From an uncultured Gammaproteobacteria bacterium (lineage in GTDB: Bacteria > Pseudomonadota > Gammaproteobacteria > UBA6002): 64,000 bases of DNA. Each line of letters starts with the position of its first letter. The first letter of the stretch is position 1. A program made the position numbers. The DNA is taken from assembly GCA_963817645.1 (NCBI GenBank), contig CAWFQC010000024.1, positions 102,256 through 166,255 on the forward strand. The letters are read 5' to 3'. This document shows positions 36,901-39,900 of this stretch, one piece after another.

Positions 36901-39900
36901 TCACAATTTTTTTCGGTAAGTTTACGCAATCCTTTTCCTTCAGAACCCATTACTATTCCCAATGCTTCGCTATAGTCTACTTCCGTATATAGTGTCTTGG
37001 CATGTTCACTGGTACCATACAACCAAATTCCACGTTCCTTTAGCATTTCTAAGGTTCGCGCTAAATTAGTGACTTGAAAAAGGGGGTAAAAAGAGTGGCC
37101 CCTGAAGCCACCTTACTCACCACAGACGTCATTCCACAGGCACGATCCCTAGGAGCAATTACTGCATGCACTCCAGCCGCATTCGCCGTGCGAAGGCAAG
37201 CACCTAAATTATGTGGGTCTTGTATCCCATCAAGTATTAGTAGAAAGGGTAAAGCTATATTGTCCAAGTAATCTTCCAAATTTTTATACTGCTCTAGCGA
37301 TTTTATGACAGCGACTATCCCTTGATGATGGGTAGTATCACTTAAGATATTTAAGTCGTTTCGGGTTTGCATTCTAACTTCAACACCTCTTTGCTTGGCA
37401 ACACGCAGCAATTCACTCATTCTTTCGTCATTGCGATGACTATCGGCAACCAGGAACTCAATTCTCTCCAATTGCTTTAGCAAACACGCGTTAACGGCAT
37501 GAAACCCATAGATGATGACATTTGACATAGGTTATCCATTCTTAATTTAATAAAAAATTGCATGTTAACCTCGCACGGAGTTTAAAGCATCATAATTCAG
37601 TGGAACTATTGCTCTGGCTGCTGGCACTTGAGCTACCCCCTCTCCCGCGCTATAATTTCTGCTAGAATCAATAAGTTACCAGCGGGAGAGGGTTGGGGTG
37701 AGGGCAAAGTTGGGAGCAGAGTTTGCCCTCACCCCAACCCTCTCCCGCTGGTAACTTATTGATTCTAACAAAGATTTTTTGCGCGGGAGAGGGGGCGGCT
37801 GCAAGTGCTACATGAGGCTGTTATCTTACTAAAAACTCCGAGGTATGTTAGCTTAAGTTTCCTTACTTGTGTAGATACCTATGGGCTTGTCCGCGGGACG
37901 ACGGCAATTTTTTATTAAATTAAGAATACAGACTTCCTTAGGCGTTAGAATCCCTAAGAATAGACGACAAGAGTATAATAATTTTGGCTCTTCTGGAATT
38001 CCTGTGGTATTTTAAAAAAAAATTCCCCTTTTTTAAAGGAGGAAACTCTTGTCAACCACGGGAACTCCGGAAGAGTCATAATTTTTCTCTCAACTTTAAA
38101 ATGTAAACAAATGAAAACAATAAACCGAATAAGTTTTGTTTTACTCTATGCCTTGCTCCTTGCATTATACGCCTGCAGTTCCTTTAATCCTGTCAGGGAA
38201 GAACAAGAATATGGCGTAACTACCACCCCCCATCAAATAAAGGCCCAGCCTAGAAGTCGTTATGGGAATCCTGATTGTTATAGCGTGGATGGAAAAACTT
38301 ATTATGTAATGACATCAGCAAAAGGGTATTGCAAAACGGGTTTAGCCTCTTGGTATGGTACAAAGTTTCATGGTAAAAATACCTCAAGCCGAGAACCGTA
38401 TGATATGTTTAAATTAACAGTCGCAAGCCGAAACCTACCCCTGCCTACTTATGTTGAAGTGACTAATTTAGAAAATGGCAAAAAAATTATCGCAAAAGTA
38501 AACGACCGTGGACCATTTAAACCAGACCGTATTATTGATTTATCTTATGCTGCCGCAACAAAATTAGGTTTTGCTAATAGAGGAACTGCCAACGTTCAAG
38601 TTAGGGCGATTGAGGTATGTGAGATGCAAAATGCTAAAAACAATTCTGGGATGATCTTGGCTAACAATAAAGAAATTCCAGAAATTGAAATTAACCCAAT
38701 TGCTTTGCCTCAACCAACCCAAGGGGTAAAAGAAGTATTACTTGAGCGCTATCTTCAGCTAGGAGCATTTTTGAATAAAGAGAATGCCGTGCGGTTAAAA
38801 AATCAAATTAGGCTATATACTGAAGCCCCTATACTAATTAAAGAGGGGGCTCTTGATGAAAAAACCATTTATCGAGTACAAATCGGACCGTTCAAAAGTT
38901 CTCAAGACTCTGATACCCTATTGCATCTTTTAAATGCTCATGGTTTTGATGTGATTACTGTTTTTAGCTAAGAATTAATGATAAATTAGAACGCTGGCCC
39001 ATTTTAAGAGAAGGAATTAGCAATGAGAAAAAGTGGAATTAAATATTTTCTGGTTATATTTATGTTAATTTGTAGCATAAATGACGATGCTATCTCGAAA
39101 ACTAAATCATCTACAGAGAATACAGAGAATAGTCATTTAGCACAAACAACCCATTCTGCAAATCAACCCATTATCCCTAACCCGCCGACTGTTGATGCTA
39201 AGGGCTATATTTTAATGGATGCCAATACCGGAACCATATTAGCGGGAAACAATATAGAGGGTCGAATGGCTCCAGCAAGCTTAACTAAGCTGATGACACT
39301 TTATCAAGTCGCTGCTGCACTTAGGTTGAACCGGGTACACATTACCGACAAAGTTACCATCAGCGAAAAGGCTTGGCGCACTGGCGGCTCTAAGATGTTT
39401 ATAAAAGTGGGAGACCAAGTACCTTTAAACGATCTGATTCAAGGTATCGCCGTAGTTTCTGGGAATGATGCTTGTGTTGCCGTGGCCGAACATCTAGCTG
39501 GCACTGAAGAGTCATTTGCTGACCTAATGAATCGTTCAGCTAAAATCTTAGGGATGAAAAATACTCACTATACGGACTCCACTGGACTACCAGACGCTTC
39601 GCTTTACACTTCGCCTAAAGACCTTGCTATTTTAACGCGAGCAATTGTGAATCAATTTCCTGAGTATTACCATTGGTACTCGCAAAAATGGTTCAATTAT
39701 AATGGCATAAAGCAACCCAACCGTGACATTTTATTATGGCGCGATTCATCGATTGAAGGAATGAAAACAGGGCATACAGAAGATGCTGGCTACTGTTTAG
39801 TTTCAACTTCAAAACGAAATGACATGCGGTTAATTTCAGTTGTGATGGGCTCTTCTTCTACACGTGCAAGAGCGGCTGCCAGCTTAGCGCTTTTGAATTA

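What the first reader, a model, noticed from the sequence alone, without database searches (positions are those of the whole stretch)
37612..37835. Repeat family B: 100- or 210-bp elements with cacttgcagc...gctgcaagtg termini and an internal G-rich double hairpin
Long copies at 37612-37835 and 48716-48925 are near-identical. A short copy at 22848-22952 lacks the internal ggttggggtgagggcaaa/tttgccctcaccccaacc module, which suggests internal deletion or modular assembly. Family B copies are always adjacent to family C or D copies, so there appear to be repeat hot-spots.
Basis: seen in the sequence. Interest (0 to 1): 0.55.

Follow-up and report, generated by a model that had tools for sequence, protein, structure and literature searches.

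The report
Palindromic mobile repeat with triplex-motif core
This is a small, non-coding, hairpin-forming repeat of the "miniature transposon" kind in a repeat-rich Coxiellaceae-like bacterium; its core is an inverted pair of long-looped copies of the BoxC/triplex motif known from E. coli, and in Legionella the same modules flank a transposase and a nuclease gene.

Summary
The repeat is real. There are three copies in the window: two long (about 250-285 bp) and one short (about 185 bp). All extend beyond the reported coordinates.

Each long copy is a near-perfect palindrome. Two inverted units, CCCTCTCCCGC-[31-34 nt AT-rich loop]-GCGGGAGAGGG-TTG-GGGTGAGGG, face each other across a 13-20 nt spacer and sit inside further inverted arms. 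The three GC-rich blocks match the published BoxC/PIT/TM_ECO intrastrand-triplex motif. The first loop does not: it is about 35 nt instead of 3-6.

The short copy matches a deletion between two GCGGGAGAGGG direct repeats of a long copy.

The exact family was found nowhere else. Long-loop units of the same kind are common in Legionellales genomes. Some form 150-160 bp pairs inside about 300-bp MITEs. In Legionella waltersii they form the subterminal arms of an element carrying an IS5-family transposase and a DUF559 nuclease gene, and other Legionella genomes hold partly deleted versions.

Best reading: a MITE-like, non-autonomous mobile element. No evidence supports an sRNA, attenuator or terminator role. 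The repeat "hot-spot" claim is not significant with three copies.

Homology to the Legionella elements rests on the GC blocks, a 15-nt box and the architecture, not on the outer ends.

The parts
37566..37850 (.). Long copy c37, whole palindromic element (outer arms, two inverted units, central spacer)
   Evidence: Inverted-repeat pairs I1-I5. DNA fold -126 kcal/mol, z -19. nhmmer hits from a profile built without window sequences, E 6e-19 and 8e-19.
37638..37704 (+). c37 left unit: C block 37638-37648, 33-nt AT-rich loop, R block 37682-37692, TT, third G block 37695-37704
   Evidence: The blocks fit CCCTCNCCC / GGGNGAGGG / N3 / GGGNGAGGG of TM_ECO (PMC4666352).
37705..37725 (.). c37 centre: CAAA, 13-nt spacer, TTTG. 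This is the only asymmetric part and gives the element its polarity.
   Evidence: The spacer is inverted in c48 relative to c37.
37726..37793 (-). c37 right unit (reverse strand): third block 37726-37735, R block complement 37738-37748, 34-nt loop, C block complement 37783-37793
37628..37656 (+). Promoter-like site TTGAGC-17-TATAAT. The -35 is made by the 1-nt deletion in the cacttg(c)agc box and the -10 lies in the loop. It points inward, towards rlpA.
   Evidence: 10 of 12 matches. Consensus match only, and not conserved in the other arms.
48691..48938 (.). Long copy c48, in the opposite orientation to c37. C and R blocks at 48749-48759, 48791-48801, 48842-48852 and 48885-48895. The left third block is truncated (GGGGT only); the right third block is at 48830-48841.
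   Evidence: RNA fold -131 kcal/mol, z -11.6.
22806..22988 (.). Short copy c22: both outer arms and a single hairpin (C block 22881-22891, 30-nt loop, R block 22922-22932). It has no third G block and no centre.
   Evidence: It matches the predicted deletion product of c48. RNA fold z -4.8.
49687..49709 (+). Solo copy of the outermost ~22 nt of the c48 left arm (GTACCTGTAGATTAGTTTTTAT), at the end of a 72-nt direct duplication (48641-48712 / 49638-49709)
   Evidence: (family D14).
37538..37561 (.). Left arm of a perfect 24-nt inverted repeat that encloses c37 (partner 37904-37927). Either a further outer layer of the element or a second element into which c37 is nested.
37904..37927 (.). Right arm of the same 24-nt inverted repeat

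Best explanation
Family B is a non-coding, non-autonomous mobile palindromic element (MITE-like).

Its conserved core is a tail-to-tail inverted pair of BoxC/PIT/TM-type units. Each unit has a C block, an R block and a third G block. The first loop is expanded to 31-34 nt of AT-rich sequence. The core sits between a conserved 15-nt box (CACTTGCAGCnnCC) and about 40-60 nt of family-specific outer inverted arms.

It most likely descends from, and was spread in trans by, a transposon of the kind seen in Legionella. There the same box-plus-unit modules form the inner part of ~135-nt terminal inverted repeats around an IS5-family transposase and a convergent DUF559 nuclease gene. Loss of the internal genes leaves the bare pair of arms.

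The short copy is a secondary deletion between the 11-nt GCGGGAGAGGG direct repeats. As DNA or RNA the element folds into a very stable long hairpin or cruciform. It may also be able to form the intrastrand triplex described for BoxC.

Its effects on the host are probably incidental: insertion, local rearrangement, and possibly a promoter in c37.

Shown: the anatomy, the dispersed copies with unrelated flanks, the related elements elsewhere, the Legionella gene-carrying form and its deletion series.
Inferred: mobility of the window copies, the enzyme responsible, and triplex formation.
For: 1. Three copies lie in three unrelated intergenic sites, and the flanks diverge outside the arms. A syntenic relative (GCA_020063875.1) has no TM block in 22.8 kb and only 29 bp between ispH and the pilin gene, where the window holds c48 plus TA modules.

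2. No coding capacity. The repeat peptides have no relatives and no Pfam hit.

3. A genome-contig scan for CCCTCTCCCGC-N20-45-GCGGGAGAGGGTTGGGG hit at least 110 loci. In the 53 low-GC loci (Legionella anisa, waltersii, moravica, bononiensis, dresdenensis; Legionellales, Coxiellaceae and Gammaproteobacteria MAGs) all 69 units have loops of 30-35 nt, although 20-45 was allowed. 67 of 68 readable units complete the third G block, which the pattern did not require.

4. Tail-to-tail pairs of 142-161 bp occur in several MAGs; the window's are 156 and 147 bp. In MAG MFD09495, 12 copies form ~300-bp MITEs with ends CTAG|GGTATGCAC... and unrelated flanks. A 116-bp form there has lost the whole core by deletion between short direct repeats.

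5. In L. waltersii (L036) two such arms flank an IS5-family transposase (DUF4096 + DDE_Tnp_1; NCBIfam transpos_IS5_3) and a 113-aa DUF559 gene (Pfam E 4e-42). Each ATG lies 2-4 nt after the third G block.

6. A deletion series exists. The inner length is about 1.28 kb in L036. It is 402 bp in L043 (DUF559 plus a 20-nt transposase remnant), 323 bp in L057, and 278/248/229 bp in three L. dresdenensis copies. Those three share the ends TAGGTAACGTCCCTAAAG... and have unrelated flanks. The bare MITE pairs have inner lengths of 32-50 bp.

7. A profile built only from non-window arms finds all six window arms (E 6e-19 to 3e-4). The 15 nt outside the C block resemble the Legionellales box TCACTTCGATCTACC (11/15; P 0.034 for the maximum; mean identity 5.7 against 3.8 +/- 0.8).

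8. c22 equals the predicted direct-repeat deletion product of c48.

9. L. pneumophila Paris has three copies of a 'transposase + DUF559' segment that behave as recombination hotspots (bioRxiv 10.1101/2024.11.18.624128).
Against: - With the GC-rich blocks masked, no significant similarity to the other arms remains.
- A profile of the outer arms alone finds nothing in the window.
- Local alignments of the outer arms are no better than shuffles.
- The Legionella terminal motif TTAGGCAACGTCCCTAAAG is not at the ends of the B copies. The link to the IS5/DUF559 element therefore rests on the blocks, the 15-nt box, the loop length and the pair architecture.
- No IS5 transposase or DUF559 gene lies in the 64 kb.
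- No target-site duplication could be established from three copies. A possible TGT at c37 has no counterpart at c22 (direct reading of the ends).
- The exact family was found in no other genome or metagenome, so a genome-wide copy number is unknown.
- Long-loop units also occur in the opposite pair orientation, as in Coxiellaceae UBA6002 (L015). The unit may therefore be a module that several elements carry.
Confidence: 0.6

Rival explanations
1. The element is an 'emptied' DUF559 cassette. The pair of triplex-type units would be the recognition or flanking sites of a DUF559 (Vsr-like PD-(D/E)XK) nuclease gene. It would spread by nuclease-triggered homing or gene conversion rather than transposition, and family B would be what remains after the gene is lost.
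For: - DUF559 genes occur in 12 of about 110 loci that were selected only by the DNA motif.
- They are always flanked within about 100 nt by TM motifs whose third block faces the gene.
- This includes GC-rich taxa with no transposase nearby: Rhodanobacteraceae L103, Sideroxydans L066, Ferrovibrio L063 and L042. E. coli ycjD has a TM motif at its 3' end.
- YcjD-like proteins are predicted PD-(D/E)XK nucleases related to Vsr (PMC1189080).
Against: - In a sample selected the other way, by DUF559 homology in the plasmid collection, only 2 of 10 diverse loci had TM-like G blocks within 400 nt. E. coli ycjD has none upstream. The association is lineage-limited.
- The MFD09495 and L. dresdenensis elements have sharply defined ends outside the units, with flanking CTAG/TA. 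That is what a transposase gives.
- No DUF559 gene lies in the window.
Confidence: 0.2
2. The copies are functional cis-acting or RNA elements kept by selection: a structured sRNA, a transcription attenuator or terminator, an mRNA-stabilising hairpin, or a protein-binding site such as an IHF site.
For: - Extremely stable folds.
- One promoter-like site inside c37.
- Three loops carry AATCAATAAGTTA, a perfect match to the IHF consensus WATCAANNNNTTR.
- MITEs in Coxiella burnetii give rise to sRNAs (PMC5896051).
Against: - No Rfam family at gathering score, and only generic hairpin matches below it.
- No hairpin-plus-T-run terminator in any copy.
- The promoter-like site is in one arm only.
- The IHF consensus is weak: 17 matches in the window against 9 expected. 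It is absent from the loops of related elements.
- The three copies lie in three different gene contexts.
- The syntenic relatives lack the element.
Confidence: 0.08
3. The copies are by-products of local segmental duplication or recombination in a repeat-rich, possibly error-prone assembly, not independent insertions.
For: - A 72-nt direct duplication overlaps the left end of c48 (family D14).
- Several genes in the window are broken (groEL, rlmB, nrdA), so assembly or indel errors are possible.
- 1-nt indels occur in the boxes.
Against: - The flanks of the three copies are otherwise unrelated.
- The copies differ by 14% and lie in opposite orientations.
- An independent short-read assembly (Logan ERR11561019) encodes identical FeoB and DacC, and its contigs end within or beside the repeat-bearing intergenic regions.
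Confidence: 0.04

Closest known systems
BoxC / PIT element / TM_ECO intrastrand-triplex motif of E. coli and more than 260 other genomes (Bachellier et al. 1990s; Hoyne/Maher 2000; Holder et al. 2015, PMC4666352)
   Same: The same three blocks in the same order: CCCTCTCCC ... GGGAGAGGG - 3 nt - GGGTGAGGG. All nine third-strand pairings are of the allowed kinds (G.G, T.A, A.A). The location is intergenic. The motif also occurs as 'tandem inverted' pairs, at five sites in MG1655. E. coli itself holds cagGGAGAGGGTTGGGGTGAGGGtg next to ycjD.
   Different: The first loop is 35-38 nt between the 9-nt blocks instead of 3-6. The units here are embedded in a 250-300 bp element with further inverted arms. 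Holder et al. report never finding transposase or integrase remnants near TM sites, whereas in Legionella the long-loop units flank a transposase.
Legionella 'transposase + DUF559' repeated segment (three copies in L. pneumophila Paris, bioRxiv 10.1101/2024.11.18.624128; seen here in L. waltersii L036 and L. moravica L059)
   Same: The subterminal module is the same: a 15-nt box, the C block, a 30-35 nt loop, the R block and the third G block. The modules are present as an inverted pair with the third blocks facing inward.
   Different: Family B has no genes between the arms. Its outer terminal sequences are not detectably related to GGCAACGTCCCTAAAG. Its third block reads GGGGTGAGGG rather than GGGGAGAGGG.
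~300-bp MITEs with a long-loop TM pair in Legionellales-type MAGs (MFD09495.bin.1.55; SRR32277368_binner13; BWOrgControl MAG7)
   Same: The overall build and size are the same. The hairpin-to-hairpin core is 142-161 bp, against 147-156 bp here. They have many copies with unrelated flanks and also core-less or shortened deletion forms.
   Different: The outer arms and loop sequences differ. The 23-base B-specific pattern was found in none of them.
Classical bacterial MITEs (Neisseria Correia elements; Coxiella burnetii QMITE1/QMITE2, PMC5896051)
   Same: Small, non-coding and dispersed, with terminal inverted repeats. They fold into long hairpins, sometimes carry promoters or IHF sites, and are found in a repeat- and pseudogene-rich intracellular-type genome.
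   Different: No sequence relation was shown. There are no DUF1658-type peptides as in QMITE1 and no GTAG REP head as in QMITE2. No target-site duplication was established.

Membership tests
BoxC / PIT / TM_ECO triplex motif | 9-nt C-rich stem CCCTCNCCC | tested here: met
   CCCTCTCCC is in every arm of all three copies. Definition from PMC4666352.
BoxC / PIT / TM_ECO triplex motif | First loop of 3-6 nt (at most 10 nt in the earlier PIT definition) | tested here: not met
   30-34 nt lie between the 11-nt blocks, which is 34-38 nt between the 9-nt blocks.
BoxC / PIT / TM_ECO triplex motif | [quoted passage not shown] | tested here: met
   GGGAGAGGG-TTG-GGGTGAGGG is in three of the four long-copy arms, with 9 of 9 allowed triplets by direct reading. 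The third block is truncated in the c48 left arm and absent from c22.
BoxC / PIT / TM_ECO triplex motif | Forms an intrastrand triplex in vitro or in vivo | not testable with these tools
   This needs CD, NMR or DMS footprinting of an oligonucleotide with the long loop.
MITE | Small (under about 500 bp) with no coding capacity | tested here: met
   The copies are 185-285 bp. Only short ORFs with no relatives and no Pfam hit.
MITE | Terminal inverted repeats | tested here: met
   Nested inverted repeats reach the ends at 37566/37850. c37 is 84.5% self-complementary over the core.
MITE | Multiple dispersed copies with unrelated flanks | tested here: met
   Three copies in 64 kb with unrelated flanks. 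The genome-wide number is not testable because the source genome is not in the collections.
MITE | Target-site duplication | tested here: inconclusive
   A possible TGT at c37; none at c22; the c48 right end abuts another repeat. Related elements are flanked by TA/CTAG.
MITE | A cognate autonomous IS with the same ends in the same genome | tested here: inconclusive
   No transposase lies in the window: tblastn and Pfam scans of 40 ORFs. The rest of the genome is unavailable.
Legionella IS5-family/DUF559 element and its derivatives | Outer ends (T)TA|GGCAACGTCCCTAAAGTTTTT | tested here: not met
   An HMM of the Legionella termini gives no hit at the B ends. Outer-arm profile and alignments are not significant.
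Legionella IS5-family/DUF559 element and its derivatives | Subterminal module: box TCACTTCGATCTnCC, then the C block, a 30-35 nt loop, the R block and the third block, as an inverted pair with third blocks facing inward | tested here: met
   Profile hits at E up to 6e-19. Box 11/15, P 0.034. Loops 30-34 nt. Pair geometry 147-156 bp. After the blocks are masked nothing remains significant.
REP/BIME with RAYT transposase | 20-40 nt imperfect palindrome with a conserved GTAG/CGTC head, clustered near a Y1 (RAYT) transposase gene | tested here: not met
   The units are about 67 nt with no GTAG head. No Y1 transposase is among the Pfam-scanned ORFs.
Known structured RNA or intrinsic terminator | An Rfam family at gathering score, or a GC hairpin followed by a T run | tested here: not met
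Coxiella burnetii QMITE1 | Encodes basic DUF1658 peptides; 300-400 bp with 2-4 bp direct repeats | tested here: not met
   No DUF1658 or other Pfam hit for the B peptides at E up to 1. DNA-level comparison was not possible because no QMITE sequence was on hand.

The most novel reading that the evidence does not exclude
Long-loop versions of the BoxC/PIT/TM triplex motif are the conserved subterminal modules of a family of mobile elements in Legionellales. These elements range from an IS5-type transposase with a DUF559 nuclease down to bare MITEs such as family B. If so, the BoxC-type motif has a vehicle. Its spread has been unexplained since the 1990s, and it was reported as never associated with transposases or integrases. 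The inverted BoxC pairs of enterobacteria could then be relics of the same kind of element.
Probability: 0.3. Interest if true: 0.6.

Novelty: new variant of a known kind. Interest (0 to 1): 0.4.

Why it matters
For this genome it is mostly ordinary. It is one of several MITE-like repeat families that have swollen the intergenic regions of a TA-rich genome with several apparently disrupted genes.

The wider point is that its core is a BoxC/triplex motif with a tenfold longer first loop. Published triplex searches could not see that form. In Legionella genomes the same module sits in the terminal repeats of a transposase/DUF559 element and of its deletion derivatives. This offers a testable route by which BoxC-type motifs disperse, a question left open by the E. 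coli work. It also flags these elements as likely sites of deletion and rearrangement.

Tried and rejected
1. Cyanobacterial small dispersed repeats were my first guess from the sequence. The gene content (IcmF, FeoAB, pilin, IleS) and the IleS relatives point to a Coxiellaceae-like gammaproteobacterium.

2. Census by the exact family pattern CACTTGCAGCNNNCCCCTCTCCCGCG: 0 hits in genome contigs and 0 in metagenome contigs.

3. Census through spurious ORFs: no protein shares words with the repeat peptide.

4. My by-eye match of the c37 outer end (TAAGCTAACATACCTCGGAGTTTTTAGT) to the Legionella terminus (TAGGCAACGTCCCTAAAGTTTTTTGT) is rejected. The outer-arm profile, alignments against shuffles, and a terminal-motif HMM are all negative.

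5. Homology beyond the GC blocks: masking the blocks removes every hit. Only the adjacent 15-nt box gives modest support.

6. A universal DUF559-TM link is rejected. Only 2 of 10 DUF559-selected loci have TM-like blocks.

7. The adjacent pairs with 1.5-1.6 kb between them in L084 and L112 are two separate elements around ordinary genes, not composite transposons.

8. Integron attC reading, prompted by the TA cassettes nearby: no integrase was found among 40 scanned ORFs, and B does not recur between cassettes.

9. Rfam, terminator and promoter scans gave nothing consistent.

10. A plasmid-collection search with the Legionella element gave only distant IS5 transposase hits.
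Full report
**Observation**

The 11-mer CCCTCTCCCGC (at most 1 mismatch) occurs ten times in the window. All ten are inside these copies, against 0.27 expected by chance. GGTTGGGGTGAGGG occurs three times, only in the two long copies.

The long copies are not near-identical. They are 86% identical (165/191 columns), and only when one is reverse-complemented.

All copies fold far better than shuffled sequence:
- c37 as DNA: -126 kcal/mol, z -19.
- c48 as RNA: -131 kcal/mol, z -11.6.
- c22 as RNA: -60 kcal/mol, z -4.8.

**Anatomy**

A long copy is a nested palindrome. From the outside in, each half has these parts:
- About 40-60 nt of outer arm.
- The box CACTTGCAGCnnCC.
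- A C block, CCCTCTCCCGC.
- An AT-rich loop of 31-34 nt.
- An R block, GCGGGAGAGGG.
- TT, then a third G block, GGGGTGAGGG.

The two halves face each other, third blocks inward, across CAAA-13 nt-TTTG. The 13-nt centre and the two different loops give the element a polarity. By these features c37(+) corresponds to c48(-) and c22(+) to c48(+). The left third block of c48 has lost GAGGG.

The inverted repeat runs well beyond 'cacttgcagc'. The elements span about 37566-37850, 48691-48938 and 22806-22988. c37 is additionally enclosed by a perfect 24-nt inverted repeat at 37538-37561 / 37904-37927.

**The short copy**

c22 keeps both outer arms and one hairpin. It matches what is left if the stretch between the inner and the outer GCGGGAGAGGG direct repeats of a long copy is deleted. 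95 of its 105 bases match the product predicted from c48.

A parallel case exists in another genome. MAG MFD09495 holds a 116-bp form that has lost the whole core between two GGGGTT repeats.

**Context**

The window is 38% GC chromosomal DNA. It carries housekeeping genes (ileS, ribF, ispH, lspA, feoAB, dsbD, rlpA, dacC, ptsP, thyA, lgt), an IcmF-like gene and many toxin-antitoxin modules.

- The best IleS relatives are 72-74% identical.
- One of them comes from Coxiellaceae bacterium UBA6002.
- Only short Logan contigs from run ERR11561019 carry identical FeoB and DacC proteins. They end within or beside the repeat-bearing intergenic regions.

The three B copies lie in three different settings:
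- c22 lies downstream of groEL and upstream of a solute-binding protein gene.
- c37 lies between divergent rlmB and rlpA.
- c48 lies between the convergent pilin gene and higA.

A syntenic relative, GCA_020063875.1, has ribF-ileS-lspA-ispH-pilin-feoABC packed tightly. It has 29 bp between ispH and the pilin gene, 6.5% intergenic DNA and no triplex-type block in 22.8 kb. UBA6002 has a Fic gene at that position. The c48 neighbourhood (AlaDH, RelBE, HigBA, B) is thus an insertion-prone interval in the window's lineage.

**Elsewhere**

The family-specific 23-base pattern was found in none of 185,579 species genomes and in no JGI metagenome contig.

They fall into two classes:
- 57 GC-rich loci (Burkholderiales, Xanthomonadales, alphaproteobacteria). 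In 49 of their 58 units the 'spacer' holds another short-loop unit.
- 53 low-GC loci (five Legionella species plus Legionellales, Coxiellaceae and Gammaproteobacteria MAGs). All 69 of their units have loops of 30-35 nt, and 61 of the 69 are 33-34 nt.

In the low-GC class, 67 of 68 readable units complete the third G block although the pattern did not ask for it.

Tail-to-tail pairs of 142-161 bp, like the window's 156 and 147 bp, recur in several MAGs. In MFD09495, twelve copies align over about 300 bp. Their ends read CTAG|GGTATGCAC...GTGCATACC|CTAG and their flanks are unrelated.

**The gene-carrying form**

In L. waltersii (L036) two inverted arms of about 135 nt enclose an IS5-family transposase in two ORFs and a convergent 113-aa DUF559 gene. 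Each arm consists of the outer end TA|GGCAACGTCCCTAAAG..., the box, the long-loop unit and the third block.

- The transposase matches DUF4096 and DDE_Tnp_1, and NCBIfam transpos_IS5_3.
- The DUF559 gene matches Pfam at E 4e-42.
- Each start codon lies 2-4 nt after the third block.

The same ends with unrelated flanks occur in L. moravica, L. anisa, a Legionella MAG and L. dresdenensis.

A graded deletion series is present:

| Locus | Inner length | Content |
|---|---|---|
| L036 (L. waltersii) | about 1.28 kb | transposase and DUF559 |
| L043 | 402 bp | DUF559 plus 20 nt of the transposase gene |
| L057 | 323 bp | partial DUF559 |
| L094, L105, L090 (L. dresdenensis) | 278, 248, 229 bp | gene remnants (of both genes in L105); identical ends |
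| MAG MITE pairs | 32-50 bp | bare pair of arms |

An independent paper reports three copies of a 'transposase + DUF559' segment acting as recombination hotspots in L. pneumophila Paris.

**Limits of the homology**

A profile built only from non-window arms finds all six window arms, with E from 6e-19 to 3e-4. Several tests narrow what that means:
- With the GC blocks masked, nothing remains.
- An outer-arm profile finds nothing in the window.
- Outer-arm alignments are no better than shuffles.
- The Legionella terminal motif is not at the B ends.

Only the 15 nt next to the C block give modest support. They match TCACTTCGATCTACC at 11/15, with P 0.034 for the maximum, and mean identity is 5.7 against 3.8 +/- 0.8.

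Family B therefore shares the subterminal module and the architecture with these elements, not their ends. Long-loop units also occur in the opposite pair orientation in UBA6002, so the unit behaves as a module.

**Known relatives of the motif**

The three blocks are those of BoxC, also called the PIT element or TM_ECO: 5'-CCCTCNCCC N3-6 GGGNGAGGG N3 GGGNGAGGG. According to the paper:
- This motif was shown to form an intrastrand purine-motif triplex in vitro.
- It is present 23 times in E. coli MG1655, at five sites as inverted pairs.
- It is linked to local genomic instability.

The window's unit fits every block and the 3-nt second loop, with 9 of 9 allowed triplets. Those authors state that they never found transposase or integrase remnants near the motif. 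E. coli carries the identical GGGAGAGGGTTGGGGTGAGGG next to ycjD, a DUF559 gene.

**DUF559**

- DUF559 genes lie in 12 of the motif-selected loci.
- They are always within about 100 nt of a unit whose third block faces the gene.
- Four of these loci are GC-rich and have no transposase nearby.

The converse does not hold. Of ten diverse DUF559 loci taken from the plasmid collection, only two have TM-like G blocks within 400 nt. E. coli ycjD has none upstream. The link is real but lineage-limited.

**Function**

- There is no Rfam family at gathering score. Relaxed thresholds give only generic long-hairpin matches.
- No copy has a terminator-like site.
- One arm of c37 has a promoter-like TTGAGC-17-TATAAT.
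- Three loops match the weak IHF consensus.
- The repeat peptides have no relatives and no Pfam hit.

I see no support for a dedicated RNA or attenuator role.

**The 'hot-spot' claim**

The three B copies do share their intergenic regions with other repeat families, and c48 abuts one directly. However, 12 of the 26 intergenic regions of at least 100 nt hold such repeats. Three of three has a probability of about 0.085.

**Verdict**

Family B is a real, MITE-like palindromic repeat: a new variant of a known kind. Its most interesting feature is a core made of long-loop BoxC/triplex units that are shared with transposase/DUF559 elements of Legionella.

Noticed in passing
window 20047-20144, 37979-38083, 48150-48247, 53294-53413, 60216-60313; fragment ~23150-23195: A second palindromic repeat family of about 100 bp. 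Its ends read GCTCTTCCGGAATTCC...GGAATTCCGGAAGAGC, around an A-run and CCCCCTTAATCCCCC (families D1/D4/D9).
   Followed up: no
window 2921-3064, 29992-30340, 30551-30607, 47949-48100, 50296-50462, 59766-59931, 60079-60135; fragment 37880-37903: A mosaic repeat family built from CACTGCCATTAAGTTAAGG and the hairpin CCGTCGTCCCGCGACTTGTTCGCGGGATCCAG (families D3, D6, D7, D10-D12). One copy overlaps the 3' end of the YafQ/RelE-family toxin gene at 50062-50433.
   Followed up: no
window 47900-48145 and 48939-48984: A 245-bp nested palindrome with ends AACGTCAGTTCGACGAATCTAAGCAGAG lies between feoA and the pilin gene. A half copy abuts the right end of B copy c48.
   Followed up: partly
window 48641-48712 and 49638-49709: A 72-nt direct duplication (97% identical) covers the pilin gene 3' end plus the first ~22 nt of the B outer arm. 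It brackets [B copy + half palindrome + higBA], a 997-bp unit. The origin is unexplained: insertion by recombination, or tandem duplication.
   Followed up: partly
window 23275-24920; 36786-37528; 15943-19046 with 12606-12770: groEL is split into at least four ORFs, the rlmB-like methylase into two, and nrdA is badly degraded. A 165-nt copy of the nrdA 5' end lies 3.3 kb upstream. These are either pseudogenes of a host-restricted bacterium or indel errors in the assembly.
   Followed up: no
window 60511-60657 inside ORF 60480-62264: A 21-nt tandem repeat (five or more units, giving 7-aa repeats) lies in a 594-aa ORF with no Pfam match.
   Followed up: no
window 48656-51825 compared with L114 14274-14303 and L116 8201-9511: The interval between ispH and the pilin gene is variable among relatives. 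It is 29 bp in GCA_020063875.1 and holds a Fic gene in Coxiellaceae UBA6002. In the window it holds an AlaDH/PNT-family dehydrogenase gene, RelBE, HigBA and the B copy.
   Followed up: partly
L103 6800-7240, L066, L063, L042, L043, L003/L115 (E. coli ycjD): DUF559 nuclease genes are bracketed or abutted by BoxC/TM-type motifs with the third block facing the gene, in taxa from Legionella to Rhodanobacteraceae, Sideroxydans, Ferrovibrio and E. coli. Only 2 of 10 DUF559 loci chosen independently show this.
   Followed up: yes
L054 ~6030-6090: One MFD09495 MITE copy carries an expanded TTAGGGT-like microsatellite inside its outer arm.
   Followed up: no
window 37666-37678, 37752-37764, 48856-48868: Three B loops contain AATCAATAAGTTA, a perfect match to the IHF consensus WATCAANNNNTTR. 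The consensus is weak (17 matches in the window against 9 expected), and it is not seen in the loops of related elements.
   Followed up: partly
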